Shown: one piece after another, positions 14,613-32,968 of the stretch | Position numbering within the stretch: position 1 is the stretch's first letter | How the letters are laid out: every line of letters starts with the position of its first letter | From: a virus | Lineage: Duplodnaviria; Caudoviricetes | Direction: 5' to 3' (one strand) | Length of the DNA stretch: 34,838 bases | IMG/VR virus record: IMGVR_UViG_3300020045_004937 | Location: 1 to 34,838 of that record | The notes under the pieces: model-generated | Told to the model about the DNA's origin: nothing | What the model saw: only the letters and a program-made list of their open reading frames with translations | Databases searched by the model: none | Position numbers and translations under genes: made by a program

Positions 14613-14872
14613 TTCAGGACTTAAAGCGACTAGAGTTCCTGATTAACGCAGTAAAGCTTGTCGCAAATACTCGTGTCGAAGTGGGTAAACTTACTTCCCC
14701 CTTCGGCACTGAGTACACAGGATTTAAGGTCACAATTGTGGGGGATAACCCGAACGTGGAACGCTCCTATGCCGATATAGATGCAATCTTTAAGTCTAAT
14801 CCAGGAGCTTACAAGGTGGAAGAAGAAAGGGAATCAGATGGAAAGTTTAAGAGCTTCAGCGTGACAACATGA
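14612..14872 (+). CDS. Hypothetical protein (possible ATT start at 14612; the track uses GTG 14681)
   Basis: Frame open from 14588; ATT overlaps the upstream TAA in TAATG-like geometry. Confidence 0.5.
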   Translation: MQDLKRLEFLINAVKLVANTRVEVGKLTSPFGTEYTGFKVTIVGDNPNVERSYADIDAIFKSNPGAYKVEEERESDGKFKSFSVTT

Positions 14873-15978
14873 GCAAAAATACCAAAGAAATCCCATTTAC
14901 AGAAATAGTCGAACGAGCCATAGAACTAGCACGCCTTCGTGAAGAAGTGCGCTCTAAAGTCCGTGGAATCGTCAACGACATATACCTCCGTGACATTCCT
15001 AAGAAAGAGGATTGGACGTTCCTTCTCTCCACTACCTCTCTTACTGTTACTCCAGAATACAAAACAGGCACAGTCACGGCCAACACAGGTGATACCTCCG
15101 TAGTATTTACAGGGGCTACCATCACCTCCGACATGACAGGTAGACGCCTCAAGATTAGCAACAACGACTATATCTACCGCACCACCTTTTCCAATGGCAC
15201 AGCCCTAGCCATAGCTCCGGCTCTCTCAGGAACTCAAAACGTATCAGGAGAAGCTTTCTCATTATTCCAAAACATCTACCCTCTTGTCGCAGACTTCGAC
15301 CGCTTCCCTAAGAACGGCGGTCTCCACATCTTCCGTGGCGGTCAACGCCAGCGCATTGAAGAAAAAGCCTACGACTACTTCACCGAGAACGCAAACTACA
15401 GCCCTAACGACAACACCGAATTCTGCCGTATCATAGGAGCAGACACCGCAGGCAACAGGCTCATGGAGCTACTTCCGCCTCCTCAAAACACAATCTCTGT
15501 AGAGTACGACTACTTCCGCCAGCTTCGCCCCCTTCGTGAAACCACAAGTGGTCTAATCTCATCTGTAATTGCAGCGGGAACAGCCATACTAGGAGACGCA
15601 AATACAAGATTCTTGGACGCAAACACAGGTGATTATTTCCGCATAGATGCTTTTGGAAAAGGTGCTGATTCAGAGTGGTATCGTATTATAGCCATTCAAG
15701 ACAACTCATCTATGTCTATCCAGTCAGCTTTTGGGAACTCAGGGGCAGCCTCAGCAAGCTATACCATCTCATCAGTACCAGAGATGCCTGTTATGCTCCA
15801 CCCTGCAATTCTCTATGGAACCATAGCTCAGATAGCCGCCGATCAGAACGACTCATTCGTCCAAGGCTACATGACTGAATACGCCGTTATTCTCTCAGAC
15901 GCCAAGCGTGTGTATAAGACCCGTATTTATCGCCAAGACATGGATACAATCGCAACGGAGTATCGCTACAGACTCTAA
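14869..15978 (+). CDS. Head-tail adaptor protein with two inserted beta domains
   Basis: N-terminal FTEIVERA...VNDIY...DWTFL and C-terminal P..LHPAILYG adaptor motifs flank two GT(V)T-type beta inserts. Confidence 0.65.
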   Translation: MSKNTKEIPFTEIVERAIELARLREEVRSKVRGIVNDIYLRDIPKKEDWTFLLSTTSLTVTPEYKTGTVTANTGDTSVVFTGATITSDMTGRRLKISNNDYIYRTTFSNGTALAIAPALSGTQNVSGEAFSLFQNIYPLVADFDRFPKNGGLHIFRGGQRQRIEEKAYDYFTENANYSPNDNTEFCRIIGADTAGNRLMELLPPPQNTISVEYDYFRQLRPLRETTSGLISSVIAAGTAILGDANTRFLDANTGDYFRIDAFGKGADSEWYRIIAIQDNSSMSIQSAFGNSGAASASYTISSVPEMPVMLHPAILYGTIAQIAADQNDSFVQGYMTEYAVILSDAKRVYKTRIYRQDMDTIATEYRYRL

Positions 15979-18866
15979 TGCTACAACGCAACATACCAAT
16001 ATCAACGCCTAAGTTTGACAAGGGTTTATTCACATTCTCAAATTTTCTCCAGAACGAGAAGGGCCACTCCCCTAATTGCATGAACATCAAGTGGAACTTT
16101 GACGACTCTATCCAGAAGCGTCTTGGTTCTACTACCCAGAACACAGTTGCCCTCGGGGGTGTTGCCAGCACAAGTTGGACAATAGACACCGACTCAGATT
16201 TATCTACACTCCTTAAAGCCTACTGGAAACTAGACGAGACAAGCGGGACTCGATTTGATGCATTTAGTTCTCATAACTTAACTCAGTTAAATGATACTCT
16301 CTACCAAACAGGAATAAGAGGAAATGCCGCCATGTTCGTAGCGGCAAACTCCAACTCTCTATTTATCAAGAATACAGCTACCCTAACAGTCTCAGGCTCA
16401 AATCCTTTTACTATTTCAGCATGGTTTTATCTTAACTCTACCTCACTTGACCTAGAACGCACCATTGTTTCAAAGATGGACCCTGTAGTTGGAAGCGACA
16501 CTCTTATTCTTTTGCATGGCTCAGGCCCACAAAACTCTACAACAATCATAGACTCTTCTATCTATGGAAATGCCATAGGTGTTACTGGCAACGCAAACAT
16601 AGACTCAGGTCAGAGCGTATTCCTAAACACTTCAATATTATTCAAAGGTTCAGGATACCTCTCATTTACAGACGCTTCGAACAGATTCAATTTTGGTTCA
16701 AATAACTTCATGATAGATTTTCGCTACCGCCCAGATAACCGCTCAGGCAGACAAGTCATCATAGCTCAGTTCGATAACGATGATAATTTCTGGATGATAG
16801 AAAAACAGTCCGACCATACTATCCGAATGATATTTGTGGTAAGTGATGTTCTCATAGCAGAATACGCCACTACCACATTCACCGTATCTAATGATAATTG
16901 GTATCACATAGTTTGTGCTAGGAACGGAATCAACGGCATTATTTGTGCTGATGGAAGCGTCAAAACAACTACAGAAGTGGCCGCATTTGGTAACAGTTCC
17001 ACAGGAGATTTTAACTCTGACGTCTATTTTGGAGGAGTAGGGTACGCTTTCAGCTTATCTGGCTGGATAGATGAAATGAGAGTCCTAAAGGGTAAGACCA
17101 TGATTACAGGTTCCTACCCTGTTCCTACAGCCCAATACGGAGCAACAAACCAAGAATATTGGCTCTGTATCGGCACAGATAATATAGTTGCTCTGAAAGT
17201 CTCATCTGACGGCCTCTCTTTCCACACTTCAATTACGGCCGCAAGTAATGGAGCCGTAGCTCTAAACACTTGGTATAACGTAGTCGCTTGGTATCAGTCT
17301 GGAGCCGCAGCTCATCTTGGAATAGCAGTCAATCAATCTGTTAATACTGCAAATTATACAGGTGGAATAAGAACAGGCTCTGCAGCATTTGTCATAGGAG
17401 CTAACTCGTCTTCAATAACCTCAGACGCCTCTTTCTTCATGGACGGTCGCATAGATGAAGTAGGATTCTGGAAACAAGCCTTATCAGCGAATGAACGCTC
17501 AGATATGTATGGAGGCGGTTCTGGGAACACATTCACTTCATTGCAGGGTCGGTTTACATGGGCAAATTATGACTTCGGGGCTTCTACTACACGCTGGGTT
17601 ACAGTAGCCGCAGGTACAGGCATTTATGCCTCTTCAAATCTATGTGTTACGTTTTTAACAGTAGCAACCAGCCGAACACAGAATTACCAATCTTTTGAAC
17701 GCTCCAAGAATGTTCTGGTAGCTTGCTCGGATGCCTACGACCAAACTCTTTATTGGGCAGGTTCTGCGGGGACATTCTTTGTAGCATTAGCTCTTAACTC
17801 GGCTCCTAAAGCCAAGTTCGCCCAGAATCATCAGGGTTTCTTAATCCTCATGAATTCTCAAGACAGTAACAACACATTGAGCAAGAGACGTTTCAGCTAT
17901 GTTGACGAGTCTCTCCAACTTACCTCTACATGGGCAGACTACTTTGACCTTCCCTCTACTGCCGATGACGAGATAACAGGCTCATTCATTCTAAACCGCA
18001 CTCTCTACGTCTCCACCAAATACCGCATCTATCGTGTCTCCTATGTCGGAGGCAACCCAGACTGGTCATACCAAGTAGTCGCCTACTGGGGCTATGTGCC
18101 TCGTACTATCCAAAGAGCTTCTATCGAGGGCGGTGAGGTAGCCATTGGTCTTGACTGGTCTCGCCGTATCAGAATATTCGACGGCGTTAAGGACACCATA
18201 GTTTCTGACAACATTGAAGATGATAACGGCCTTTGTGACTTTGCTACTGATAAAATATCTTATGCAGGATCAGGTCTTATTATCTCACATTCAATCATAG
18301 ACCCTCTCGAACAGGAATACCGCCTCAATGTAGCCATAGGAGAGAACTCAACTCAAACTACCCATGCCATTGTTCTAAACCTTCGCTCTTTGGCTATGTA
18401 CCCCTATTCTAACCAGGGCTACCAATGTATGTGCATAGCTGAATCGGCGGGCCGTCAATATCTATTAGCTGGTGATCGTTCTGGTCGTGTACATATTTTA
18501 AACACAGGAAACACAGACGTATCAACACCTATTGATGAGGTTTACGAATCACCATTCATTTTTAGTAAAGTCCCAGGATTAGTACAGAAGTCAAACAAGA
18601 TAGACATGTATTTCGTCAAGGATTCTTCTGGGACTGTTTATTTCCAAGACAGGGCAGATTTTAGCTCGGTGTGGGGTAACAAAGCTTCTCAAATAAATAT
18701 TGTTCAAACAAATTCTAATCTCCATATTATCCATTCTATCGACATACCTTCCACTCATAATATATATCAATATAAACTTATGTCTTCTTCTTCTACTGCA
18801 AATCCTTGGAGACTTACCCATACAGACTTCTTCCTTCAAACAATGGGAGTAGGAAAGGGACAATGA
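15978..18866 (+). CDS. Tail nozzle/stabilisation protein with inserted LamG domains
   Basis: N-terminal GL...SPNCMN...IQKRLG motif and C-terminal propeller-like region; LamG motifs at aa ~75-516. Confidence 0.7.
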   Translation: MLQRNIPISTPKFDKGLFTFSNFLQNEKGHSPNCMNIKWNFDDSIQKRLGSTTQNTVALGGVASTSWTIDTDSDLSTLLKAYWKLDETSGTRFDAFSSHNLTQLNDTLYQTGIRGNAAMFVAANSNSLFIKNTATLTVSGSNPFTISAWFYLNSTSLDLERTIVSKMDPVVGSDTLILLHGSGPQNSTTIIDSSIYGNAIGVTGNANIDSGQSVFLNTSILFKGSGYLSFTDASNRFNFGSNNFMIDFRYRPDNRSGRQVIIAQFDNDDNFWMIEKQSDHTIRMIFVVSDVLIAEYATTTFTVSNDNWYHIVCARNGINGIICADGSVKTTTEVAAFGNSSTGDFNSDVYFGGVGYAFSLSGWIDEMRVLKGKTMITGSYPVPTAQYGATNQEYWLCIGTDNIVALKVSSDGLSFHTSITAASNGAVALNTWYNVVAWYQSGAAAHLGIAVNQSVNTANYTGGIRTGSAAFVIGANSSSITSDASFFMDGRIDEVGFWKQALSANERSDMYGGGSGNTFTSLQGRFTWANYDFGASTTRWVTVAAGTGIYASSNLCVTFLTVATSRTQNYQSFERSKNVLVACSDAYDQTLYWAGSAGTFFVALALNSAPKAKFAQNHQGFLILMNSQDSNNTLSKRRFSYVDESLQLTSTWADYFDLPSTADDEITGSFILNRTLYVSTKYRIYRVSYVGGNPDWSYQVVAYWGYVPRTIQRASIEGGEVAIGLDWSRRIRIFDGVKDTIVSDNIEDDNGLCDFATDKISYAGSGLIISHSIIDPLEQEYRLNVAIGENSTQTTHAIVLNLRSLAMYPYSNQGYQCMCIAESAGRQYLLAGDRSGRVHILNTGNTDVSTPIDEVYESPFIFSKVPGLVQKSNKIDMYFVKDSSGTVYFQDRADFSSVWGNKASQINIVQTNSNLHIIHSIDIPSTHNIYQYKLMSSSSTANPWRLTHTDFFLQTMGVGKGQ

Positions 18867-19093
18867 GCAAGGTATCTGATTATTTCTTTACAGACCCAGA
18901 GCTAAATGCTTTCAAAGATGAGGTAAGAGATATCTTGAACTATGGCAAGTATCAGAAACAACTTCTAGCTTCTCTACCGAATTGGGCGGCAAGACCAGGC
19001 GAGGAAGTCCTATTTGTTCCTTCCTCAGGCGGGACTACAAACTACTTCTACAAAGGTTCGGCCTGGATAAGCTCATGGAGCGTGACCGTATGA
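18863..19093 (+). CDS. Small tail-associated protein (76 aa)
   Basis: ATG at 18863 in ATGA overlap with the nozzle stop; I prefer it over the longer track start at 18806. Confidence 0.6.
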   Translation: MSKVSDYFFTDPELNAFKDEVRDILNYGKYQKQLLASLPNWAARPGEEVLFVPSSGGTTNYFYKGSAWISSWSVTV

Positions 19094-19488
19094 CATTCGA
19101 CCAATTAGCCACAGTCTTTATAGCATGGGGTTATTACGTTAGACCTGAACACTATGAAGGGTTCATGACTTACACCGCCAATATGCTTAAGAAGAAACGT
19201 GTCATGCTCATCCGCTCTGAAAATGGATTAGACGCTATTATCTTCTTCTTTCTCACAAATGACTACTCCAAACTCTACAAGAAATCCCGCTGGGCTATCC
19301 CAGATGACGAGCCGGAAGGTTCCCAAGTTTACATAGACAAAATGATATGTAAGAGATGGACGCACCAGATTCGCCGTCAGGTGCAGGACTCTATTGAGTC
19401 TAATTTCCCTAACGTTATGGAGGGCTTCTACCACCGCGCCCCCTACGACAGATGTGTTAGAATTATGAGAAGGAGTGTGCATGCATGA
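19090..19488 (+). CDS. Putative GNAT/HlyC-like acyltransferase-fold protein
   Basis: ATGA-coupled start at 19090; W...DEPEGSQVYIDKMI resembles the HlyC-type G..LWIID strand; occupies the pre-ejection-gene slot often held by GNAT proteins in podoviruses. Confidence 0.4.
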   Translation: MTFDQLATVFIAWGYYVRPEHYEGFMTYTANMLKKKRVMLIRSENGLDAIIFFFLTNDYSKLYKKSRWAIPDDEPEGSQVYIDKMICKRWTHQIRRQVQDSIESNFPNVMEGFYHRAPYDRCVRIMRRSVHA

Positions 19489-19994
19489 AAAAGTATGAGA
19501 TACAGTTTCTTAACGATGATGAGTTTAATAGTCTGCCATTTAAGGCAGTAGAGCAGGCAATGGGTGTAGCCGACTCCCATAGCCAAACAGCTTATGTCCG
19601 CAAAACAGGCATAATGCCACTTGACCTTTACACAGCGGCTCACGAGCTTGAACATCTTGAAGACTCTGGCTGCTCAGACCATGAGTATTTTGGAGATGGA
19701 AGACACTACTTCTTAAAGGCCGCTTTTCCAGCTATTCTTGGGGCGGTTGGCAGCTCCCTTGTTGGTGCTGGGATGAACAAGCTATTAGCACCCAAGCCTC
19801 AACAGCAACAAGCCCAGCCTCAAGTTATGCCTACTCAGTCCGCAGCCCTTAACCAATTCGGAGGTTCTAAACCAAATATCATAGCTCCACAAGCAGCCTC
19901 TATGGGTGGCGGCAACGGGATGGTAAGCCAAAATACACCTGTCAATGAACTTCTCAAAAAGAACAAAGGCAACTACTCAGGAGGGATGATGTAA
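19485..19994 (+). CDS. HExxH-domain putative ejection protein 1
   Basis: N-terminal domain with YTAAHELEH, followed by an amphipathic A/G-rich helix and a Q/P/G/M tail. Confidence 0.7.
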   Translation: MKKYEIQFLNDDEFNSLPFKAVEQAMGVADSHSQTAYVRKTGIMPLDLYTAAHELEHLEDSGCSDHEYFGDGRHYFLKAAFPAILGAVGSSLVGAGMNKLLAPKPQQQQAQPQVMPTQSAALNQFGGSKPNIIAPQAASMGGGNGMVSQNTPVNELLKKNKGNYSGGMM

Positions 19995-20443
19995 TGAAAT
20001 ACAAACTAGAGTTCTTAGACGACCAGGCGTTTGACAGTCTCCCATACAAAGATGTCCACACCTCTCTTGGGTTGGCTGATTCCAACACTCGAACGGCTTA
20101 TGTGCGTAGGACAGGTATCAACGCCATTGACCTATTTACCGCTGCTCATGAACTTGAACACTTGGAAGAAGGCCGACATGGGGCAGATTCACACCATGAG
20201 AAGTATGCTGATGGGGTTTACTACAAAGACTTGATGGAAGTCTTCACGGGTCCAAAACAGCAACCTCAACAGCAACAAGCTCCTAGCATTCAACCATCTA
20301 TGTCTCCAATGTCTCAGAGTCCTAACGTGGTAGCGGGCGGAGGTGGTATGGGCGGTCAAGTAAGTGGAGGTCTCCCAGGCGGCGATACCATCCAGAAACT
20401 AAAAGGCTTCTTCTCTGGGCGGTCTCCTCAAGGAGGGATGTAA
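19994..20443 (+). CDS. HExxH-domain putative ejection protein 2
   Basis: Paralogous N-terminal domain FTAAHELEH; Q/G/M tail; TAATG coupling. Confidence 0.7.
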   Translation: MKYKLEFLDDQAFDSLPYKDVHTSLGLADSNTRTAYVRRTGINAIDLFTAAHELEHLEEGRHGADSHHEKYADGVYYKDLMEVFTGPKQQPQQQQAPSIQPSMSPMSQSPNVVAGGGGMGGQVSGGLPGGDTIQKLKGFFSGRSPQGGM

Positions 20444-21741
20444 TGAGATACGAGCTAACCTTCTTAGATGATAAGGAGTTTGAGTCACTACCTTATCTCG
20501 ACACCCAGACTTCTTTAGGGCTTGCCGACACCAAGAAAGGTAAAGCTTATGTCCGGCGCACAGGAGTCAAGGCCGTAGATGTATTCACGGCCATGCACGA
20601 GCTTGAGCACTTAGAAGGTGACAAGCTAGGTGAGCATGACCGCTATGGTAATGGGGTCTATTACAAAGACTTTGGATCAGCTTTGTCTGGTGCTGCAAAC
20701 TCTGCTATGGGTGGTCTTGGTTCAGCAGCTAATCTTATAGGCTCTAGTATTGGAGGAGCCGCAAAGAGCATAGGTGGGGCTGCTAATTCAGTAGGAAGTT
20801 TTATATCTAATCCACTTCAAGCTTTCCAACCAGGAAAGGCTCCTGTGTCTAGTATGGCAAATGCAGTAGCTTCTGGCAGCCAGACTCCTGGGAGTTCTTC
20901 AAGTATTTATCCTGGAGTAATGGGTTTAAGCGGAGCCTTGAATGCAACTCAACCTAATTTGTCAGGGCCATTTAGTTCAAAGCTAGGAGCTTCTGGTCTT
21001 CTCTCTTCCCCACAAATTAAATTGCCAAGTTCATCAACTTCAATGTCTCTTACACCATCAGCCTCTACTCAGACTGCCCAACCACAGGCACCTCAAGGCC
21101 AAGGCGGTCTAGGTGGTATGCTTGGTGGTGTAGGAATGGACTTACTTAAACAAGCTGGAGGTGGTTTGCTCTCTAAGTTTGTAGGTAGTTCAGGACCCCA
21201 AGGTGGTGGAGCAAGACTTCCTGATATGAGTGGTCTTGAATCAGTCCAAGCATTCAAGAACTACGACCTACGTGGTCAAATGAACCAACTTGACCCAGGA
21301 CTTGAATCTGCCATCAACCGTGACTTCGACCAGATGGACCAACAGGAGCAACATGACTTCCAGTCTCGTTGGAAGAACATCCGTCCTGGAGCTGACATCG
21401 AATCCGACTCAGTATACAAGCGTGACTATCAGAACCTCCTAGCCGAGCAACAGCAACGCCGTGCGGACGCTATGTCTAAATACCGCTTCGACTATGTTAA
21501 GACTCAGCTTGGTATCAACGAGCTAGAAGCCCAAAGGCTCCAGACTCTTGCACAGCTTGATGTTCAAACCATAGCAATTAATACAGGTCTTGAACAAGAG
21601 GAAGCCATGCAACTTAAGCAGATGTTCTCTGGAGAAACACAAGCCCAACCTCAAGGAGGTGGGATACTTGATACCCTTCTTAGACCTGCAGTTCAGACAG
21701 CAGGTCAGAGGATAGGTGGCTATGTTGGAAATATGTTTTAG
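20443..21741 (+). CDS. HExxH-domain putative ejection/DNA pilot protein 3
   Basis: Paralogous N-terminal domain FTAMHELEH; long G/S/A-rich region, then a Q-rich helical region. Confidence 0.7.
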   Translation: MRYELTFLDDKEFESLPYLDTQTSLGLADTKKGKAYVRRTGVKAVDVFTAMHELEHLEGDKLGEHDRYGNGVYYKDFGSALSGAANSAMGGLGSAANLIGSSIGGAAKSIGGAANSVGSFISNPLQAFQPGKAPVSSMANAVASGSQTPGSSSSIYPGVMGLSGALNATQPNLSGPFSSKLGASGLLSSPQIKLPSSSTSMSLTPSASTQTAQPQAPQGQGGLGGMLGGVGMDLLKQAGGGLLSKFVGSSGPQGGGARLPDMSGLESVQAFKNYDLRGQMNQLDPGLESAINRDFDQMDQQEQHDFQSRWKNIRPGADIESDSVYKRDYQNLLAEQQQRRADAMSKYRFDYVKTQLGINELEAQRLQTLAQLDVQTIAINTGLEQEEAMQLKQMFSGETQAQPQGGGILDTLLRPAVQTAGQRIGGYVGNMF

Positions 21742-21749
21742 GAGGAGAT

Positions 21750-22586
21750 ATGGCATTTAATCAATTTGATGTAGCAACTGGATTTAAGACAGGCCGTGAT
21801 GCGGCTAAGAGTTCCGGCATCTTAGATGCTTTTGAATCAGATAGGAAATATAGGGATGAACTTAGAACTTATGAAAGCAAGAAGAAGATTGATGCCCAGT
21901 ATGACCCTAAGGGGAAAGGAACAAAGGGAGTTTATTCTTACAATCCATTTACTAAGAAAGTCCAACAGGAAGGTGAAATTCCAGATAATGCTGTATTAAG
22001 AAATACACTCACTGAAGAAGATATCGCTGCAAAGTATGGGTTAAGGAATCAATTTGAAAGTCCTACACAAACAGAGGTTCAAAGTAAAATTAATGCAGAA
22101 GAACTTGTCGGTAAATCGAGAGAGCTCCAGAGAATTCTTTCGACAGATAAAGATTACTTTGGTGGAATAGGGTCTACTAAGCTTAAAGCAAAAGTTCCTT
22201 TTAATGCTTTTGATGAGAAAGCTCAAAGATATGAATTTGTTAGAAAAGATATGGTTGATAGAATTGCTAGGCTTCGTAGTGGTGCTTCAATAAACGAAGA
22301 AGAAATGAAGAGGTTGCAACAGCTTCTTCCTGTGACAGGGAGATTCGATAGAGTAGATATCCAAAATCTTCAAGACTTTGAAAGAGAATTTTCTACTTTG
22401 GCTCATAGAATTAATAATGGTGTCAAATGGGATGAAGCAAGCCAGAGTTTTGTATCCCCAATTAACCAGAACCCATTTCAGCAAGGTTCTGAAATAGAAC
22501 AATCAGCTTCTTCTGGCCAACCTCCAGTTGCAGATGACTGGAAATCTAGGGAAGAAACACTTCGTAAAAGATATTCGGGACTCTAA
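21750..22586 (+). CDS. Putative internal virion/ejection protein
   Basis: AGGAGG SD; helical, with RLRSGASINEEE motif; position; AT-richer than its neighbours. Confidence 0.55.
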   Translation: MAFNQFDVATGFKTGRDAAKSSGILDAFESDRKYRDELRTYESKKKIDAQYDPKGKGTKGVYSYNPFTKKVQQEGEIPDNAVLRNTLTEEDIAAKYGLRNQFESPTQTEVQSKINAEELVGKSRELQRILSTDKDYFGGIGSTKLKAKVPFNAFDEKAQRYEFVRKDMVDRIARLRSGASINEEEMKRLQQLLPVTGRFDRVDIQNLQDFEREFSTLAHRINNGVKWDEASQSFVSPINQNPFQQGSEIEQSASSGQPPVADDWKSREETLRKRYSGL

Positions 22587-23707
22587 TGGCTAGAATAGAT
22601 GACATTCTAAATGACCCAGACTTCAGGGCTCTTCCACCAGAAAGACAAGATGCTTTCATTGATGAGATGAGGCAGAAAGACTTCGGAAAAATCCCCCCCT
22701 CCGAAAATGTCCTCCAGAGAGCGGTAAATATTGGAGGCAAGACAGCCATGTCTACTTTAGGCCAGATGATTCCTGGACAAGACGTGCCTCTCCCATTTTT
22801 CACTAAAGCAGCTACAGGTATTGATACTCATGCTCTCCCAACCATGACTTCTGAAGCAAGACAAATGAAAGAGAAGGGTATTGAAGGACTTACTTCTGGA
22901 ATTAAAAATCCTTTTCTTAGGTTTGGAGCTTCTGTAGGACTAGACCCAGAAACTTATATTGGTGGAGGTGGTGCAGCAAAACAGAGGATTCCCCAAGAAG
23001 TTGGAGAAGCCACATCAAAAGGTTTATCATCAGTAATTAAGAAAGTTTCGTCTCTTCCAAAAACAAGCTTTTTCAAAAACCCAGAAAAAGGAAAGAAAAT
23101 AGCTGAAGAAGCAAATGCTGCAACTGATAAAGTATTTAAATCATTCGATAAAGAATACGATTCAGTTCTAAACAATTCTCCAGAAGTTAAACTTCCAGAA
23201 ACAGAAGTTTCTAAAGTTCAAGACAGGATTTTAGAACAGGCACAAGGACTTGAAGAAGGCTCTCCAGCCTACAGAGAAATAATGAAATTTGGAGAGAGCC
23301 TTTCAAACATGACTGGAAAACAATTACATAATGCAAAACAAGCTCTATTCAAAGCTTCTAAAAGATTAACAGGTGCAGATCGATATGCTATGAGAGAAAC
23401 TTATCATGCAGCCTCCGATGCTCTTAGTTCACCTGATGTTTATGGAGATGCCTATAAAGCAGTCTCTGGTAAATTTAGAAATTTTATTCAGGATGAGTTT
23501 CAGTATGTTGAAGATAATATTATAGACAAGTTTAATAAGCCTACTGAGCAATATCTTACTCAGAAAACTCCTCTCACTTTAAATGAAGAAGAAGCATTTA
23601 GAAAACTTGGAGCTAGAGAACAAAATCCTTTCGTGGAAAGAATACAAGGAATTAAAAGAGGGGAAAAGTATAAAAAAGGTATTCCTGTTGTTGGAAGGTT
23701 TTTATAA
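22586..23707 (+). CDS. Putative internal virion/ejection protein
   Basis: ILNDPDFRALPPERQ N-terminus and LDPETYIGGG motif typical of podovirus internal proteins; last gene of the virion operon. Confidence 0.55.
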   Translation: MARIDDILNDPDFRALPPERQDAFIDEMRQKDFGKIPPSENVLQRAVNIGGKTAMSTLGQMIPGQDVPLPFFTKAATGIDTHALPTMTSEARQMKEKGIEGLTSGIKNPFLRFGASVGLDPETYIGGGGAAKQRIPQEVGEATSKGLSSVIKKVSSLPKTSFFKNPEKGKKIAEEANAATDKVFKSFDKEYDSVLNNSPEVKLPETEVSKVQDRILEQAQGLEEGSPAYREIMKFGESLSNMTGKQLHNAKQALFKASKRLTGADRYAMRETYHAASDALSSPDVYGDAYKAVSGKFRNFIQDEFQYVEDNIIDKFNKPTEQYLTQKTPLTLNEEEAFRKLGAREQNPFVERIQGIKRGEKYKKGIPVVGRFL

Positions 23708-23751: not shown

Positions 23752-25512
23752 ATGGACAACCTCCTCTCGCTCATCGGCCCGTTCCTCCCTCAACTCTATC
23801 TTAGTATTACAGTCTGGATTACTTACGGCTACATCGTCTGGCGTGGAGGCTTTGTCTCTGATGACCTAATGGGCATAGCCGAGTACGACGGTAAGCTCCA
23901 AGGCTTCGAGTACGGCATGATATCCCGCTGGGTTCGCTACCACATAGCCGGAGGGCACTTTCCATCAGGCCAACACTTCCTTAATCCTGACGGCTCCAAA
24001 GGAGCTACTATCCCCCAAGGTAAGATACCCCTACGTCACCACCTTCTATCAGTCCTAGTCCTTAACCTAGCCGTAGTATTCCTCTACCCATTCCTCTCGG
24101 TTATAGCTGGAGAGAAGGTTGCCTTCTTATCTCTAATCCTCTTCACAGTCCACCCTGTCCTAACCCAAGCAGTAGCGTGGTGCTCAGGGCTGGGCTACCC
24201 ACTATGCCTCATGTGGATGGCTCTATCATTCAACCTAGTGCTCCACTATCAGTCCATCCAAGCTCCCTCAATAGAACAAACAGTTCTCTGGTCTGGCCTA
24301 TTCCTTATTCTCCAATTCCTAGCCATCAATGCCCTCTTTGTCGGACTCATGGCGTTTCCAATCCTTCTCTTCATAGGAGCCCCATACTTCGCCATTCTCT
24401 CTGTCATAGTCTCCATAGTTTTAGGACTTCAAATTGTTAGAGACACCATCAAGTACCGCAAGAAAGCCTTTGAAGAACAGGCTATGGGCAAGTCAACATT
24501 TGTGAAGCCTCGTAAGCTGATTGTGGCTCTAAAGACCCTAGCCTACTATATCTACCTTATTATCTTCCCCTCCCGCATGGGTCTCTACCACGAATGGGGC
24601 TACCACTATGACGATAAGGCAGAGCGTGAGGATTGGAGACTCATTGTTGGAATAGCCATAGCCTCTGGAATGGCTTATATCTTCTTTGGCCCTTTCAGCC
24701 CCACCCTCAAGTTCTCAGTCCTATGGTTTAGCTCATTCCTCTTTATCTTCTTAAACTGGATAACCATTCAACAGTTTGTGACGGAACGATACGTCATGAT
24801 ACCAGTCCTGGGTTTCTGCGTAGCAGTCTGCTACTTCCTCCAAGACTACCCTGTAATCTATGCCCTCGTCATTGGTCTCTTTCTCATGCGGACTTGGACA
24901 CATCTCCCTACCTACCGCAACGAGCTAACCTTCTACCTCTCAAACGTCTGGAACTTTGGGCGTTCAGAAGTTGCTCATGGGAACCTCGGTGTTACCTACC
25001 TCCGCATAGGTCAGATAGGAAAAGCCCTAGATACTTGGCATGAGGCTATCCGCATCAACCCAGAGTACGATGTTCCCTATTACAACATCTTCTCCCATTA
25101 CCGTGGCAACGCCATGATGAAGCTTCAACACGGGGAATACCAAGAAGCTATGAGCCTCTTGAACCAAGGACTCCCCTATATCCAGAAGTGTGTCTCATGC
25201 AAGATATGCCACATGAAGGAACTCTGGACTAAGGAATACAATGAAATCAAGTCATGGGTCGAGAACCCGATGAACCTAATCCTGCAGGAAGAAAAACGCC
25301 AGATTGACCTCCAAACCAAGCTTATGAAAGAACACAATGAATCACAAGACCCGAAACGCCGTCATGACATCAACCTGTCCCTCGTTGACATAGCCAACCG
25401 TCTGAAGCACATCGGAGAAATAAAATCGCAAAACCAAAAGTCCTCATCACAGGTGGCGATGGCTTCATCGGCTCCCACCTTGCCAAACTCTTCCCCGACG
25501 CCGATATCCTAG
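23752..25512 (+). CDS. TMTC-like GT-C membrane glycosyltransferase with C-terminal TPR
   Basis: About 10 TM helices; FVSDD after TM1, LFTVHPVLTQAVAW, TERYVMIP, RNELTF; TPR AHGNLGVTY...AIRINPEY. Confidence 0.8.
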   Translation: MDNLLSLIGPFLPQLYLSITVWITYGYIVWRGGFVSDDLMGIAEYDGKLQGFEYGMISRWVRYHIAGGHFPSGQHFLNPDGSKGATIPQGKIPLRHHLLSVLVLNLAVVFLYPFLSVIAGEKVAFLSLILFTVHPVLTQAVAWCSGLGYPLCLMWMALSFNLVLHYQSIQAPSIEQTVLWSGLFLILQFLAINALFVGLMAFPILLFIGAPYFAILSVIVSIVLGLQIVRDTIKYRKKAFEEQAMGKSTFVKPRKLIVALKTLAYYIYLIIFPSRMGLYHEWGYHYDDKAEREDWRLIVGIAIASGMAYIFFGPFSPTLKFSVLWFSSFLFIFLNWITIQQFVTERYVMIPVLGFCVAVCYFLQDYPVIYALVIGLFLMRTWTHLPTYRNELTFYLSNVWNFGRSEVAHGNLGVTYLRIGQIGKALDTWHEAIRINPEYDVPYYNIFSHYRGNAMMKLQHGEYQEAMSLLNQGLPYIQKCVSCKICHMKELWTKEYNEIKSWVENPMNLILQEEKRQIDLQTKLMKEHNESQDPKRRHDINLSLVDIANRLKHIGEIKSQNQKSSSQVAMASSAPTLPNSSPTPIS

Positions 25513-26198
25513 ATTTAAAGAATGGTGATGATATCAGGGAGTCACTTCCTGATAGAGATTACACCCACATCTTCCACCTAGCCGCCAAACGATCTATTCC
25601 TCTCGGCGAGAAGTCTCCAAGAGAGTTCATTGATACAAACTGCTTTGGCACATGGAACTTGCTTAAGAAATACCCAGACTCCCGAATCATCTTCGCTTCC
25701 TCTAGCTCTGTCAACAAGCCCCAGAGCATCTACGCCTTCACTAAGAAATGGGGCGAGGACATAGGAGCCTTTCACAAGAACTGGGTCAATGTACGCTTCT
25801 ACAATGTCTTTGGAGAGAATCAACCAGAGGACTCAGGGGCTCTTGTTCCACACCTTATCATGTCTAAAATTAGGGGCGAGCAACCTACAATCTTTGGGAA
25901 CGGCCAACAGATGAGAGACTTCACCTATGTAGGGGATATAGTCGAGTGGCTTAACGAACTAGCCTTTAGACGTATCAGCGGTCTAGTCCACTTGGGCTAC
26001 GCTTTCCCTTGCTCGGTAAACGACATGGGACGCATGGTGTTTGGACAAGACTATGACCCTCATTACTACCCCAGACGTTCATTCGACATTGAACACAACG
26101 AAGCCCCTTCTTCTGACTTTCCACCTGTCTATGGGCGTAGAGAAGGTATGCAGAAAACAATAGAGTGGTATGAGAATACTTACACCCGAAACAGTTAA
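25425..26198 (+). CDS. NAD-dependent epimerase/dehydratase (extended SDR), probable ATC start
   Basis: In-frame KVLITGGDGFIGSHL and IFHLAA lie upstream of the track start; also FASSS, YAFTK, RFYNVFG and RDFTYV. Confidence 0.88.
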   Translation: MAKPKVLITGGDGFIGSHLAKLFPDADILDLKNGDDIRESLPDRDYTHIFHLAAKRSIPLGEKSPREFIDTNCFGTWNLLKKYPDSRIIFASSSSVNKPQSIYAFTKKWGEDIGAFHKNWVNVRFYNVFGENQPEDSGALVPHLIMSKIRGEQPTIFGNGQQMRDFTYVGDIVEWLNELAFRRISGLVHLGYAFPCSVNDMGRMVFGQDYDPHYYPRRSFDIEHNEAPSSDFPPVYGRREGMQKTIEWYENTYTRNS

Positions 26199-26520
26199 TA
26201 AGAACAACAAGAGAACGCTTACTCAGTTATTCACGGCTGATATTAAGCAGGTCAATACATACTCAGTCACTCGTGGGGCTATACTAGGCAACCACTACCA
26301 TAAGGAAACATACGAATACTTCTATATCACTAAAGGCAGTTTCTTAATGCAGTCAAAGGACAAGCAAGGAGTTTTGATAGAGAAGGTAATAGGCCCAGGC
26401 TCACTCTTTGTCATCGAGCCATACACTGTCCACACAATAGAATCTCTATCAAAGGATGGCCAATTCATGACATTCTTAACCAAAGAGTTTAAACAGGAGA
26501 GCCCAGATATTTATGTCTAA
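26170..26520 (+). CDS. Cupin, FdtA/WxcM-like sugar 3,4-ketoisomerase
   Basis: GNHYHKETYEYF and PYTVH cupin motifs; located within the NDP-sugar cluster. Confidence 0.7.
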   Translation: MRILTPETVNKNNKRTLTQLFTADIKQVNTYSVTRGAILGNHYHKETYEYFYITKGSFLMQSKDKQGVLIEKVIGPGSLFVIEPYTVHTIESLSKDGQFMTFLTKEFKQESPDIYV

Positions 26521-27484
26521 GAAAGCACTTGTGACTGGCTACACAGGCCAGGACGGAAGTTACATGGCTGACCTGCTTATTTCAAAAGGTTATGAAGTCT
26601 ACGGCCTAGTACGCCGTTCAGCATCCCCAAACCATTGGCGCATTAAACATCTCGAAGGAAAGGTTAATATAGTCTATGGTGATCTAAACGACCAATCCTC
26701 TCTCGACAACGCAATACGAACTATCCACCCAGATGAGGTCTATAATCTTGGCGCACAGTCCTTTGTTCAATACTCTTTCCAAGCTCCCCTTGCAACGATT
26801 GAAGCAAGTGGAGTCGGCGTTATCAAACTATTGGAGGCGGTTAAAAACAACCACAAGGAAGCCCGCATATTCCAAGCGTCCACGTCCGAAATGTTTGGAA
26901 AAGTAAGGGAGACTCCTCAGAAAGAAACCACTCACTTCTACCCACGCTCACCGTATGGCTGTGCAAAGGCTATGGCTCATTACGCCTGTGTCAACTACCG
27001 TGAAGCTTACGGTATGCACATCTCATGCGGCATTATGTTCAACCACGAGTCCCCTCGTAGAGGAGAAGAATTTGTCACACGAAAAATCACCAAAGGTATC
27101 GCAGAATTCAAAAAAAGCGGTAAAAAGCTTTCTCTTGGCAACCTCAACGCTTCAAGAGATTGGGGCCATGCCGCTTCTTACATGCTTGGGGCCTGGCTTA
27201 TGCTCCAGCAGGATAAACCAGATGACTACGTTCTATCCACTGGTGAAACTCACACTGTCAAAGAGTGGCTTGAAGCCACCTGTGAAGTTGCGGGGGTGGA
27301 TTTCTGGGAGGTCTATACCCAAAATCCAGCGTTCGAGCGTCAAGCTGAAGTAGATTACTTGAAGGGTGACTCAACCAAAGCAAGGAAAGTCTTAGGCTGG
27401 AATTCTGGCCCAAGCTTTAAAGAAATCGTTGAGGAGATGGTGAAGGCTGATGAAGCTCTCATTGGTAATCCCAGCCAAGTCTAA
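26513..27484 (+). CDS. gmd: GDP-mannose 4,6-dehydratase
   Basis: KALVTGYTGQDGSY, YNLGAQS, QASTSE, YPRSPYG..K, FNHESPRRG and RDWGHA motifs. Confidence 0.95.
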   Translation: MSKKALVTGYTGQDGSYMADLLISKGYEVYGLVRRSASPNHWRIKHLEGKVNIVYGDLNDQSSLDNAIRTIHPDEVYNLGAQSFVQYSFQAPLATIEASGVGVIKLLEAVKNNHKEARIFQASTSEMFGKVRETPQKETTHFYPRSPYGCAKAMAHYACVNYREAYGMHISCGIMFNHESPRRGEEFVTRKITKGIAEFKKSGKKLSLGNLNASRDWGHAASYMLGAWLMLQQDKPDDYVLSTGETHTVKEWLEATCEVAGVDFWEVYTQNPAFERQAEVDYLKGDSTKARKVLGWNSGPSFKEIVEEMVKADEALIGNPSQV

Positions 27485-28349
27485 AGACGACCCAAAACTA
27501 GCCGAGCTTCTTAGGTCTATAGAAGCCCAGGACTTTCCGAAGGAAGATATGGAAGTATTGGTTATCACAGAAGGGACCTCGGAGTCTGCTAAGGCTATTG
27601 GAATCCGCAAGGCTAAGGGTGAGGTGATTGGGATATTGGCGAGTGATAATGAGCTAGTCTATACTGATTTTATTTCTCAAATAATGAATCTATTTCCAGT
27701 TAATGATGCGGTATGGCCAGAGTATTATTTTCGTCATCTAGGCGATGATGCTTTGAACAGATATTTTGCTCTTATTGGTGGGAACGATTCTCTTTGTTTT
27801 TATATGGGCAAAAACGATAAAAAATCTCATCTAGATATAGTTGAAAGAAAATTTCCATTTAAAGTTAAATGTAATAAATCATATGGAGATAATGGATTCT
27901 TTATAAAAAAGGAAGTTATTTGCAGAACCGATTTAGACAATTATTACCATGTAGATAACGCAAATGAAGCTATTGCTGATAGAAGAACAGCATCTATTGG
28001 ATTTGCAATCTGGCATAAGACAGGCGGCAACATCTTCTCCTTCTTCCGTAAACGCTACCGCTACGGCCTCCAACACGCCTTTAATAAGAACCGTCGCTGG
28101 CACTTAGTAGACTTCAGACAACCTAAAGATATCGTGAGGCTAATATGGTTTGTAATATGTTCAGTCACTCTTGTCGAGCCACTAATTCTATCATTCAGAG
28201 GCTTTCTGAAGATAAGGGATGTAGCTTGGTTCTTACACCCTGTGGTTTGTTTGATGACTCTTACAACGTACAGCCTCTTAGTGATACGCCTAGGGCTATC
28301 CCGTTTGTTTCCATCGTCATCTGCACCTATGGCCGCCCAGAAAGCCTAA
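27450..28349 (+). CDS. Glycosyltransferase family 2 with C-terminal TM helices
   Basis: LSLVIP, AKAIGIRKAKGE, ASDNE (DxD variant), GDNGF; hydrophobic C-terminus. Confidence 0.75.
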   Translation: MKLSLVIPAKSKDDPKLAELLRSIEAQDFPKEDMEVLVITEGTSESAKAIGIRKAKGEVIGILASDNELVYTDFISQIMNLFPVNDAVWPEYYFRHLGDDALNRYFALIGGNDSLCFYMGKNDKKSHLDIVERKFPFKVKCNKSYGDNGFFIKKEVICRTDLDNYYHVDNANEAIADRRTASIGFAIWHKTGGNIFSFFRKRYRYGLQHAFNKNRRWHLVDFRQPKDIVRLIWFVICSVTLVEPLILSFRGFLKIRDVAWFLHPVVCLMTLTTYSLLVIRLGLSRLFPSSSAPMAAQKA

Positions 28350-29077
28350 ATGAAACACTTATCTCTCTCACAAAACAAACTTTCAAAGATTTTGAAATCC
28401 TACTCATCACTGAAAAAGGGAACCTATCGGAGCTCCGGCAACGTGGCCTTAGATGTTCAGGAGGAGATATTGTTTCATTTATTGACGATGACGTTTATTG
28501 CCCGCCAACTTGGTTGGAAGGTGTCGTTGCGGGTTTCAGGGAAGGAGTTGTAGGTGTATCGGGGCCAACTGTTGTACCGCACTCCCATCTATCTAACCGA
28601 GATATATTCCGCTGGAGACGGCTCAAGAACCTATACGATTTCCTATTCCTTGATGGGAATCAAGAAGTCCCTGGATACCTTTCAAGTTGTGGTGCGCCCT
28701 CAACGGCTTCAAATTATCCAAACGGTCGAATTACCTGTACACCGCATTACCTCGAAGCATGCAACATGTCAGTTAAAAAAAATGATGCCATTACTGTTGG
28801 AGGATTTGAAGGATGTTTTATCTCTACTTCGGAGTGGTGCGAGGTTGATTTGGCGCTCAAGCTCAGGTCAAAAGGTAAACTTGTCTACTCAAAGGATGCT
28901 TACCTCAACCATAAGCCGAGCAAGGCAGGTATCTATAAGAGCCGACTTTCAACGAAGCATAGGTGGAAGAACTTCATGTACTTCCAAAAAAAGTGGATAA
29001 AGCCAAGCCTAAAAACCTATATCTATCGGGGATTCATATGGACTTACCTAAAGATGAAAAATCTGCAAATGATATGA
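28298..29077 (+). CDS. Glycosyltransferase family 2 (probable ATC start; track start 28145)
   Basis: (M)PFVSIVICTYGR, GDIVSFIDDD, CNMSV, GGFE and EVDL motifs. Confidence 0.85.
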   Translation: MPFVSIVICTYGRPESLNETLISLTKQTFKDFEILLITEKGNLSELRQRGLRCSGGDIVSFIDDDVYCPPTWLEGVVAGFREGVVGVSGPTVVPHSHLSNRDIFRWRRLKNLYDFLFLDGNQEVPGYLSSCGAPSTASNYPNGRITCTPHYLEACNMSVKKNDAITVGGFEGCFISTSEWCEVDLALKLRSKGKLVYSKDAYLNHKPSKAGIYKSRLSTKHRWKNFMYFQKKWIKPSLKTYIYRGFIWTYLKMKNLQMI

Positions 29078-29226
29078 CCAAAAGTGGGAGGTATTGCCCG
29101 AATGACCAAGAAGAGCTCGAAAAAGTCTCAGGTGAAATCAGGTACACATGTCATTGGTGCGGAGCAGTGTACGAAATCGACGAGCATGGGAACATCGTCA
29201 TCACCCACTTTGAAGGTTTTAAATGA
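29074..29226 (+). CDS. Small zinc-ribbon protein (50 aa)
   Basis: ATGA-coupled start; CPND...CHWC. Confidence 0.55.
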   Translation: MTKSGRYCPNDQEELEKVSGEIRYTCHWCGAVYEIDEHGNIVITHFEGFK

Positions 29227-29512
29227 TAGGGTTCTTATTGAGCCTGAGAAGGACTTGAAGCTGGAGGGGGCCTCGGAGGAAGTCATTGAGGCTTTAAAGA
29301 CCGACAAGCTCTATATCCCAGACGCCTATGAGAACTTCTATCTGAAGCGTCCAACATGGGGCAAAATTGTCTCGTGGGGAGATAAGTGCAAGTACAAGTG
29401 GGAAGTAGGACAAAAGGTTGCTTTTGCTCGTGATGGGTGGGCCAAGCTAACCTTTCAGAATAAGGAATATCTAGTGTTTACAGAGAGCCAGCTTAATGCG
29501 ACTATCGGTTGA
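29210..29512 (+). CDS. groES: Co-chaperonin GroES-like protein
   Basis: TTG start giving MKVLNDRVLIEP; LYIPD, GKIVSWG, VGQKV and EYLVFTESQLNA motifs. Confidence 0.8.
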   Translation: MKVLNDRVLIEPEKDLKLEGASEEVIEALKTDKLYIPDAYENFYLKRPTWGKIVSWGDKCKYKWEVGQKVAFARDGWAKLTFQNKEYLVFTESQLNATIG

Positions 29513-29750
29513 CCCAAAGCCTCTAGGGGCTTTCATAGAGTACACCCTTAAGCCCATCCTAGACACCCTGCGGGAACTCCTTGAGAAGCTTGAGATTCAT
29601 GGCCTCAAGGCTGAGAGGTTACTAGGCTACCTCCTAGCCATCTACATCATAGACTTCTTTAAGCAACTCATCATCACCTGTATTGTCACAGGAGCAGTAT
29701 GCTACACGGCACTAAGAATACTCTCATATTACCCAAATATAGCTCAATAA
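29496..29750 (+). CDS. Small membrane protein
   Basis: Hydrophobic C-terminal half; tiles between its neighbours. Confidence 0.5.
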   Translation: MRLSVDPKPLGAFIEYTLKPILDTLRELLEKLEIHGLKAERLLGYLLAIYIIDFFKQLIITCIVTGAVCYTALRILSYYPNIAQ

Positions 29751-30256
29751 AAGAGCACGAGGGCAAAGGTAACTGGGCTCTTTGGAAATACTACGTTCCA
29801 CCTTTCTCATTTTTCTACCAGAAGAAACTTAAGATGATATTAGACCTGATGGATTCAAACCATACCTATCACAACATCCTAGACTTTGGATCAGGCCCAG
29901 GAATATTCACTCCATCACTTAAGAAGAAAGCCATCTTTGTAGTCTCTAAGGATAAGAACGACCATATCAGCGAGAAGTGGTACTTCTCAGCAATAGTGTG
30001 TGCAAGTGTGCTGGAGTTCTGTGAGTTGTCTCATACCATTAAACTTCTCCGCTCTATTACTAAGCCTCAAGGCCGATTATTCGTGGCCTCCCCAATGAAG
30101 TCGAGGTGGTCTAGCCTCTACTTTGACGCAATAGGAGATAAGAACCTCCGTAACTCTGATTCAGATATTGTTGAGGCTATCTCAAAGCACTACGTCATTG
30201 AAGAATACAAAGAATGGCGAGGATTATACTTTGCTCTGAGAGCGAGGCCGAAATGA
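29699..30256 (+). CDS. Class I SAM-dependent methyltransferase
   Basis: ILDFGSGPG motif I, IVCASVLE, KPQGRL. Confidence 0.85.
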   Translation: MLHGTKNTLILPKYSSIKEHEGKGNWALWKYYVPPFSFFYQKKLKMILDLMDSNHTYHNILDFGSGPGIFTPSLKKKAIFVVSKDKNDHISEKWYFSAIVCASVLEFCELSHTIKLLRSITKPQGRLFVASPMKSRWSSLYFDAIGDKNLRNSDSDIVEAISKHYVIEEYKEWRGLYFALRARPK

Positions 30257-32959: not shown

Positions 32960-32968
32960 GAGATTAAA

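What the first reader, a model, noticed from the sequence alone, without database searches (positions are those of the whole stretch)
19485..21741. Three tandem ejection-region proteins share an N-terminal HExxH zinc-peptidase-like domain: candidate self-processing or injected protease system
Seen: three consecutive TAATG-coupled genes begin with the same ~78 aa domain (Y.L.FL.D..F.SLP......G.AD.....AYVR.TG....D.(F/Y)TA.HELEHLE...H(E/D)...G.(Y/H)Y). Each then switches abruptly to G/S/A/Q/M-rich cargo. Known: (F/Y)TAxHELEH resembles the FTLAHELGH motif of ImmA/IrrE-type zincins; the slot after the nozzle gene encodes ejection proteins in podoviruses; P22 gp7 is N-terminally processed. Inference: the module is a reusable autoproteolytic prodomain or capsid-loading tag that releases a membrane-active N-terminus such as FLKAAFPAILGAVGSSL, or a protease injected with the DNA. 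I do not recognise this architecture from characterised phages.
Basis: partly seen in the sequence, partly recalled or inferred. Interest (0 to 1): 0.88.

Follow-up and report, generated by a model that had tools for sequence, protein, structure and literature searches.

The report
Self-cleaving caps on phage injection proteins
Three neighbouring genes of an uncultured phage begin with the same tiny zinc-protease-like cap, which likely cuts itself off to free the membrane-seeking ends of what are likely DNA-injection proteins, and the gene beside them resembles toxin-activating enzymes and may add a fatty acid.

Summary
Observation confirmed. The ~76-residue domain defines an unannotated family (399 clusters; no Pfam, PHROG or cultured-phage match) at the N-terminus of genes in the podovirus ejection slot. 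It is predicted to be a minimal zincin. His and Glu are invariant (168/168), but the second ligand is His or Glu (HExxH/HExxE), and a third ligand 12 residues on keeps two His in all but one short-loop sequence. The domain ends in a conserved Lys (196/202), followed by an amphipathic, uncharged segment. Orthologues without the domain exist and start within about six residues of that Lys. Coevolution puts the last strand against a metzincin-like L-G-x-A edge strand with Lys in S1', so I infer a self-cut at Tyr|Lys. That would give the N-terminal Lys that P22 gp7 gets from host OpdA. New here: the upstream gene (19090-19488) is predicted to be an HlyC/TAAT-like acyltransferase and occurs in 22 of 23 domain-bearing genomes, suggesting cut-then-lipidate maturation. 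Nothing is shown biochemically; fold scores are weak, ORF1 lacks the Lys at that position, and the TAAT His is absent. Self-cleaving prodomain 0.6; with lipidation 0.3.

The parts
19090..19488 (+). HlyC/TAAT-like (GNAT-fold) acyltransferase, 132 aa from the ATG at 19090 (the ORF caller starts it at TTG 18982); conserved acidic residue D83, no conserved His
   Evidence: start from GGAG and homologue starts
19485..19994 (+). ORF1, 169 aa: domain residues 1-76 (19485-19712), then hydrophobic G/A-rich segment and Q/P-rich tail. Divergent copy: Phe at the Lys position, Lys two residues later
19641..19655 (+). HELEH motif of ORF1
   Evidence: sequence
19994..20443 (+). ORF2, 149 aa: domain residues 1-78 ending in YYK (Lys78 at 20225-20227), long-loop form; short Q/P/G-rich cargo
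20147..20161 (+). HELEH motif of ORF2
   Evidence: sequence
20443..21741 (+). ORF3, 432 aa: domain residues 1-75 (His52, Glu53, His56, Glu64/His65, Lys75 at 20665-20667), amphipathic G/A/S-rich region, conserved C-terminal region shared with domain-less orthologues
20596..20610 (+). HELEH motif of ORF3
   Evidence: sequence
21750..23707 (+). Two further genes (278 and 373 aa) without the domain, likely the remaining ejection proteins; in relative L005 the second gene after the domain gene matches an internal virion protein family
   Evidence: phrog_6651, E 6e-26
14869..19093 (+). Context: likely head-tail adaptor (14869-15978), likely nozzle with LamG inserts (15978-18866), small conserved gene (18863-19093)
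   Evidence: adaptor and nozzle names are inferred from gene order and weak PHROG hits

Best explanation
The shared domain is a detachable N-terminal module, predicted to be a minimal zinc peptidase, that likely cuts itself off just before its conserved terminal Lys and so would uncover the amphipathic, likely membrane-inserting start of a likely DNA-ejection protein. Shown: family conservation, N-terminal position, sharp boundary, domain-less orthologues starting at that boundary, gene order. Predicted: zincin fold; metal site His52, His/Glu56 and the residue 12 after His52, with Glu53 as general base; last strand (VYYK) lying antiparallel on the L25-G26-x-A28 edge strand. Inferred: cut at Tyr74|Lys75 in cis before or during head assembly; the cap keeps a membrane-active end masked and makes an N-terminal Lys that Met removal cannot make (established knowledge of MetAP specificity, recalled). 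More speculative add-on (0.3 overall): the adjacent TAAT-like enzyme acylates that Lys from acyl-ACP to anchor the ejected channel in the host envelope.
For: His52, Glu53, Gly26 and Leu16 in 168 of 168; Lys75 in 164 of 168. Aromatic/His-Lys end in 196 of 202. Third-ligand position +12: His in 66 of 66 HExxE; Glu 53, Asp 4, His 10, Ser 1 in 68 short HExxH; none has two carboxylates with one His. AF2 model pLDDT above 90 over residues 1-60, with a strand at 72-76. The top five Foldseek PDB rows and 15 of the top 16 VIA rows are zincin-type proteins by their titles (selecase, abylysin, CapP, YbeY, collagenases). Coevolution diagonal D29-V72 rank 11, L27-Y74 rank 42, G26-K75 rank 69 of 2775 pairs. 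In mirolysin the P1' Lys nitrogen binds Gly182 O of the Leu-Gly-Tyr-Ala upper-rim strand (PMC6949598, passages). Hydrophobic moment of the 11 residues after Lys is 0.365 against 0.242 +/- 0.008 in 200 shuffles, and acidic residues fall from 20-31% to 1-6%. ORF3 orthologue L009:9843-10691 (E 6e-22) has no domain and starts Met plus amphipathic helix. Four domain-less orthologues with strong alignments put Met 5-6 residues before the Lys, two weaker ones 1-2 before. Mature P22 gp7 starts Lys-Gly-Gly-Lys-Gly after the host OpdA cut (PMC8402733, passages); the commonest two residues after Lys here are KG 33, GF 31, DF 16, SG 13 of 196.
Against: No biochemical or virion data. Fold scores are weak: Foldseek best E 0.65 in PDB and 0.02 in BFVD, VIA best Z 5.3, and that best hit (YbeY) is a nuclease. 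The coevolution signal rests on Meff 158, two pairs on the diagonal rank poorly (A28-Y73 2296, L25-D76 722), and the HExxE subset alone gives A28-V72 instead. The ligand swap has only 3 independent supported pairs and is not significant. Three full-length copies lack the terminal Lys, among them this window's ORF1, whose domain has drifted more than its cargo (57% vs 78% to P0011). The four best boundary cases are one clade; 9 of 15 domain-less genes gave no clear or consistent offset. N4 vRNAP carries an HExxH domain yet is packaged unprocessed (PMC5512222).
Confidence: 0.6

Rival explanations
1. The domain binds metal but stays attached, its own last strand blocking the cleft. It acts as a solubility chaperone or head-loading tag for a membrane-active cargo.
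For: Always N-terminal and spread over paralogues. T4 internal proteins are loaded through an N-terminal signal (PMC8402733). N4 vRNAP needs its HExxH region for encapsidation without being processed (PMC5512222).
Against: A tag would not need an invariant general-base Glu plus an intact edge strand. In 7 genomes (L009, L013, L015, L021, L050, L054, L083) one cargo has the domain and its neighbour does not, so loading does not depend on it. The P22 gp7 leader is dispensable for loading.
Confidence: 0.17
2. The domain is chiefly a recognition leader for the neighbouring acyltransferase or for a host protease, like a RiPP leader; any cut is made in trans by a paralogue or a host enzyme.
For: The acyltransferase family occurs only next to the domain (22 of 22 genomes; 11 of 11 separately found contigs). 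ORF1 here looks partly degenerate and could be cut by a paralogue.
Against: L021 has the domain without the acyltransferase gene in view. Catalytic residues are kept in all 38 copies from adaptor-anchored genomes.
Confidence: 0.13
3. It is a trans-acting protease ejected with the DNA to cut host envelope or defence proteins.
For: Structural neighbours include IrrE/CapP, SprT and polyvalent metallopeptidases. A metallopeptidase in the phi24B ejection protein was proposed to degrade peptidoglycan (10.64898/2026.04.10.717836, passage).
Against: Very small domain with no substrate-binding extensions; the cleft is predicted to hold its own last strand. Up to three copies per genome, and loss exactly at the cargo boundary. 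A domain freed by self-cleavage could still act in trans, so this is not excluded.
Confidence: 0.08

Closest known systems
P22 gp7 leader removed by host oligopeptidase OpdA (PMC8402733, passages)
   Same: First ejection protein after the tail genes; an N-terminal piece is removed and the mature end begins with Lys, often Lys-Gly or Lys-Lys-Gly here.
   Different: P22 has a 20-residue passive leader cut by a host enzyme on one protein. Here the leader is a folded ~76-residue domain with its own predicted active site, on up to three proteins. No sequence link to gp7 was tested.
MPTase zincin domains of phage polyvalent proteins (P1 DdrB, N4 vRNAP; PMC5512222, PMC13434306, passages)
   Same: HExxH zincin inside a virion-packaged, ejected protein, with autoproteolysis proposed.
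   Different: Those sit in large multi-domain effectors at any position and use a Glu on a second helix. This one is always N-terminal, has its third ligand on a loop in the model, has an HExxE form, and caps low-complexity channel-type cargo.
Minimal zincins selecase, proabylysin, projannalysin; YbeY; CapP/IrrE
   Same: Nearest folds.
   Different: Chains of 104-109 residues or more against ~76 here; low scores; no family HMM match.
Toxin-activating acyltransferases HlyC/ApxC and CdiC (PMC8510554, passages)
   Same: The upstream gene's model has ApxC (4WHN) as best Foldseek hit and HlyC clusters in the ESM Atlas; the catalytic Asp region is kept; the gene sits directly beside a Lys-bearing, membrane-directed cargo as cdiC sits beside cdiA.
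   Different: No conserved catalytic His, no Pfam HlyC match, 10-14% identity; VIA ties ApxC with polyketide GNAT-like decarboxylases. The substrate would be a virion protein, not a secreted toxin.

Membership tests
Zincin metallopeptidase superfamily | Small beta-sheet plus active-site helix carrying HExxH | tested here: met
   AF2 model with three strands and helix 43-57 holding His52-Glu53-His56; top structural rows are zincins, though weak. About a third of homologues have HExxE.
Zincin metallopeptidase superfamily | Third metal ligand downstream of the motif | tested here: met
   His, Glu or Asp at +12 in 133 of 134 short-loop sequences; the 62 long-loop ones were defined by His at +16. 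Sequence evidence only; geometry not measured.
Zincin metallopeptidase superfamily | Metal-dependent peptide hydrolysis | not testable with these tools
   Needs purified protein.
Metzincins | HExxHxxGxxH motif and Met-turn | tested here: not met
   Third ligand lies at +12 or +16, not +10, and no conserved Met follows. Only the L-G-x-A edge strand is shared.
Gluzincin-type MPTase of polyvalent proteins | Glu ligand on a second C-terminal helix; multi-domain effector context | tested here: not met
   Residues 58-71 are coil in the model; the cargo is low-complexity with no effector domains found. Definition from PMC5512222.
ImmA/IrrE (Peptidase_M78) | Match to the family profile | tested here: inconclusive
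   No Pfam hit at E up to 10; phrog_87 metallo-protease in 3 of 148 members, best E 0.001; Atlas score 0.84, a lead only.
TAAT / HlyC acyltransferases (upstream gene) | TAAT-type GNAT fold | tested here: met
   Foldseek rank 1 ApxC, E 1.3e-3, TM 0.59; VIA Z 8.6, rmsd 3.9, 124 aligned, close to SxtA 9.7, GphF 9.3, CurA 9.0; Atlas 0.96 to clusters with HlyC on 23% and 38% of members, TM 0.69 to a 94% HlyC cluster.
TAAT / HlyC acyltransferases (upstream gene) | His/Asp catalytic dyad | tested here: not met
   Asp83 is Asp in 20 and Glu in 2 of 22, but no His is conserved and half the family lacks the N-terminal helices. Equivalence of Asp83 to the TAAT Asp is inferred from motif position. His mutants of CdiC and ApxC keep some activity (PMC8510554).
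TAAT / HlyC acyltransferases (upstream gene) | Transfers an acyl chain from acyl-ACP to a Lys of the neighbouring gene's product | not testable with these tools
   Needs co-expression and mass spectrometry.
Podovirus ejection (internal virion) proteins | Encoded after the tail genes as a cluster with a membrane-active first member and larger following members | tested here: met
   Gene order in 28 genomes; internal virion protein hit two genes downstream in L005; amphipathic starts.
Podovirus ejection (internal virion) proteins | Packaged in the head and ejected on infection | not testable with these tools
   No cultured relative in 50,697 phage records.

The most novel reading that the evidence does not exclude
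These podoviruses mature their DNA-ejection proteins the way bacteria arm pore-forming toxins: a built-in ~76-residue zinc peptidase, perhaps the smallest working zincin, cuts itself off at Tyr|Lys, and a dedicated HlyC-like enzyme fatty-acylates the freed Lys so that a lipopeptide end inserts into the host membrane. This would be a tailed-phage counterpart of the cleaved, myristoylated entry peptides of non-enveloped animal viruses (recalled), and would point to the role of the small GNAT-like genes beside ejection genes in T7- and P22-like phages (recalled, not tested).
Probability: 0.3. Interest if true: 0.92.

Novelty: new variant of a known kind. Interest (0 to 1): 0.8.

Why it matters
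How ejection proteins are kept harmless in the producing cell and then insert into the next host's envelope is open. A modular self-removing cap, and possibly lipidation, gives a concrete answer that can be tested with single small recombinant proteins and needs no cultured phage. The family also offers a natural His/Glu ligand swap in a minimal zincin and, if confirmed, a compact self-cleaving tag that leaves an N-terminal Lys. I found no description of this domain or of the zincin-plus-acyltransferase pairing in five full-text searches (0 papers for the two most specific) or in earlier scan notes. The library lacks most subscription journals, and HlyC has been annotated in a pelagiphage genome figure without a proposed virion role in the passage I saw.

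Tried and rejected
Pfam, PHROGs and NCBIfam scans of the three ORFs: no family. PDB sequence search: only summed weak hits to designed propeller repeats, rejected as artefact. P0081 (3322 aa, 9 stretches) is a PKD-repeat false positive and was dropped; P0192 matched on low-complexity cargo only. Locus scan with the three-sequence profile found nothing; two scans could not build patterns from broad alignments. No relative in GTDB genomes or INPHARED phages, so no host is known. Complex prediction of domain plus acyltransferase with Zn: no answer, score 0.00, not evidence either way. The first motif parse mis-picked the domain end and was replaced. Ligand swap by independent pairs: not significant. 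Profile comparison of the different small gene in L028/L079 with the acyltransferase family: probability 15%, unresolved. Sequence searches for the acyltransferase family against Pfam and PDB gave no HlyC hit. The adaptor tree is the quick version. Only the best 150 of 399 clusters were seen, so stand-alone or internal copies among the weaker 249 are not excluded. No supplements were consulted; those of PMC5512222 list MPTase families and could bear on novelty.
Full report
Observation. The window is a linear virus record, 56% complete by CheckV, with terminase, SU10-like portal and capsid genes followed by tail genes. ORF1 (19485-19994), ORF2 (19994-20443) and ORF3 (20443-21741) share their first 75-78 residues at 44-63% identity, with 30 invariant columns. 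No Pfam, PHROG or NCBIfam family matches them. Two joints are TAATG; the first is ATGA.

The family. A profile of the three domains finds 399 clusters at 50% identity, 183 at E below 1e-10; I saw the best 150. One was a false positive; in all others the match starts within the first 14 residues of proteins of 60-780 aa. In 168 aligned sequences Leu16, Gly26, His52 and Glu53 are invariant, Arg38 is in 167 and Lys75 in 164, and position 56 is His in 124 and Glu in 44. In an enlarged set of 202 non-redundant sequences, 196 end in Tyr/His/Trp-Lys 19-27 residues after the first His. The six exceptions are three apparent fragments, ORF1 of this window, L004's second copy and P0074. The residue 12 after the first His is His in 66 of 66 HExxE sequences, and Glu 53, Asp 4, His 10 or Ser 1 in 68 short-loop HExxH sequences; 62 long-loop sequences, like ORF2, have His at +16 by definition, 37 of them after Asp. 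So the ligand set keeps two or three His, as a metal site would. On a tree the two positions change 7 and 6 times, but only 3 supported independent pairs exist and the test is not significant. Homologues were found with a profile holding the motif, which favours conservation; the 38 copies in genomes reached through the adaptor gene all keep HExx(H/E) as well, though they too were picked by the domain profile.

Fold. AF2 on 148 sequences gives pLDDT 91-97 over residues 1-60, about 80 over 61-80, and the order strand 4-8, helix 10-14, strands 24-29 and 34-38, helix 43-57, coil, strand 72-76, helix 77-87. No search reaches significance, but the lists are dominated by zincins. Foldseek PDB: selecase E 0.65, abylysin, CapP. 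BFVD: phage peptidases and IrrE-like domains from E 0.02. VIA: YbeY Z 5.3 (rmsd 3.2, 71 aligned), CapP 4.7, collagenases, archaemetzincin. The tool's notes warn that Z under 8 may be a common arrangement; the motif and the consistency of hits carry the assignment.

Where it would cut. I had no coordinates, so I used mean-field coevolution on 196 sequences (Meff 158). It recovers plausible core contacts (A28-A35, A28-L57, F7-A50) and gives an antiparallel diagonal between strands 24-29 and 72-76: D29-V72 rank 11, L27-Y74 rank 42, G26-K75 rank 69 of 2775, with A28-Y73 and L25-D76 unsupported. Strand 25-28 reads L-G-x-A. In mirolysin the upper-rim strand is Leu181-Gly182-Tyr183-Ala184, and the P1' residue's nitrogen binds Gly182 O and its carbonyl Leu181 N (PMC6949598, passages). 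Mapping Gly26 to Gly182 puts Lys75 in S1' and the scissile bond at Tyr74|Lys75. This is inference from a shallow alignment and an analogy. It agrees with an independent fact: mature P22 gp7 begins Lys-Gly-Gly-Lys-Gly after the host OpdA cut, and removing its 20-residue leader leaves 60% of the burst (PMC8402733, passages).

What is released. The 11 residues after the Lys have a mean hydrophobic moment of 0.365 against 0.242 +/- 0.008 for 200 shuffles; hydrophobicity peaks 11-22 residues on; acidic residues drop to 1-6%.

The domain is detachable. I anchored on the adaptor gene, independently of the domain, and got 24 viral and 64 metagenome loci. After removing duplicates (L012, L014, L016, L020, L024, L027, L031, L034, L042, L051, L060, L065, L082), loci with under 3 kb downstream, and four that do not reach the slot (L010, L033, L043, L044), 28 genomes remain including the window. 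The domain is on three genes in one genome, on one or two in 22, and on none in five (L017, L028, L076, L079, L080). In seven genomes one cargo has it and the next does not. L009:9843-10691 is an ORF3 orthologue (E 6e-22) that starts with Met and an amphipathic helix. Of 15 domain-less genes aligned to domain-bearing ones, four (L021, L028, L076, L079, one clade) score at least twice the shuffled maximum and place Met 5-6 residues before the Lys; L015 and L054 score less and place it 2 and 1 before; nine are unclear. ORF3's domain is closer to its paralogue ORF2 (63%) than to four ORF3 orthologues (48-53%), which suggests exchange between paralogues. The slot is the ejection slot: in L005 the second gene downstream matches an internal virion protein family at E 6e-26, and the gp14/15/16 order is described in PMC8954989 (passages).

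The neighbour. Its best Foldseek hit is the toxin-activating acyltransferase ApxC (E 1.3e-3, TM 0.59). VIA groups ApxC (Z 8.6) with the polyketide GNAT-like domains SxtA, GphF and CurA (9.0-9.7), and the ESM Atlas gives HlyC clusters by features and by structure. An acidic residue at 83 is kept in 22 of 22; no His is conserved. This family is present in 22 of the 23 domain-bearing genomes and in none of the five without the domain; two of those five carry another small gene of unresolved kinship. Eleven contigs found by scanning for the gene itself are all among the domain-bearing ones. The six absences fall in about three lineages, and L017 has lost the first cargo gene too, so the correlation is suggestive only. 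L021 has a domain and a Lys but no acyltransferase in view. CdiC shows that such enzymes acylate a Lys of the neighbouring gene's product to anchor it in the target envelope, and that the His is partly dispensable (PMC8510554, passages).

Mechanism and odds. Self-removing zincin cap that frees an N-terminal Lys and an amphipathic helix: 0.6. Attached metal-binding chaperone or tag: 0.17. Leader recognised or cut in trans: 0.13. Injected anti-host protease: 0.08. Lipidation on top of self-cleavage: 0.3 overall. The timing (assembly or ejection) is not resolved.

Comparison and novelty. It works like the P22 gp7 leader with the protease built in, and like the autoprocessing proposed for MPTase domains of polyvalent proteins (PMC5512222, passages; N4 vRNAP HExxH, PMC13434306, passage), but it fails the metzincin and MPTase definitions and matches no family profile. 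It has no relative among 50,697 phage records or in two GTDB scans. Five literature searches and two look-ups of earlier findings showed no description. PMC8953716 was seen in passages and not used. Verdict: real, a new variant of known maturation logic, easy to test; interest 0.8.

Noticed in passing
window 23752-34268: Directly after the ejection genes lies a large modification cluster: TPR-bearing membrane protein, epimerase, cupin, GDP-mannose dehydratase, three GT2 glycosyltransferases, GroES-like gene, methyltransferase, polysaccharide deacetylase, B12 radical SAM and SPASM radical SAM. A 510-600 aa gene holds the same position in L005, L008, L009, L013, L015, L017, L045, L062. Possibly virion or DNA glycosylation.
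   Followed up: no
L028:14878-16553; L079:9170-10938: A different 129-131 aa small gene precedes a domain-less first cargo that starts with a very short His-Tyr-Val-Lys leader resembling the domain's last strand. Kinship to the acyltransferase family unresolved.
   Followed up: partly
L021:12888-14261: Most divergent domain copy (HEAGE) in a genome with no acyltransferase gene in view; a counter-example to strict coupling.
   Followed up: partly
window 19485-19712: ORF1's domain has drifted more than its cargo relative to P0011 (57% vs 78%) and has Phe where orthologues have the terminal Lys; perhaps relaxed or cut in trans.
   Followed up: partly
window 15978-18866: The likely nozzle carries two LamG inserts (962 aa against about 490-610 aa in several relatives); gain and loss across the clade.
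   Followed up: no
window 21750-23707 against L004:12346-17517, L007:11563-16518: This clade's last ejection-slot gene is only 360-530 aa, while other clades have 900-1700 aa; a short ejectosome might point to a host with an unusual envelope.
   Followed up: no
L045:14590-16621; L015:14567-15169; L062:4524-6080: His/Glu switches at the second ligand outside the main HExxE clade, candidates for independent ligand swaps.
   Followed up: partly
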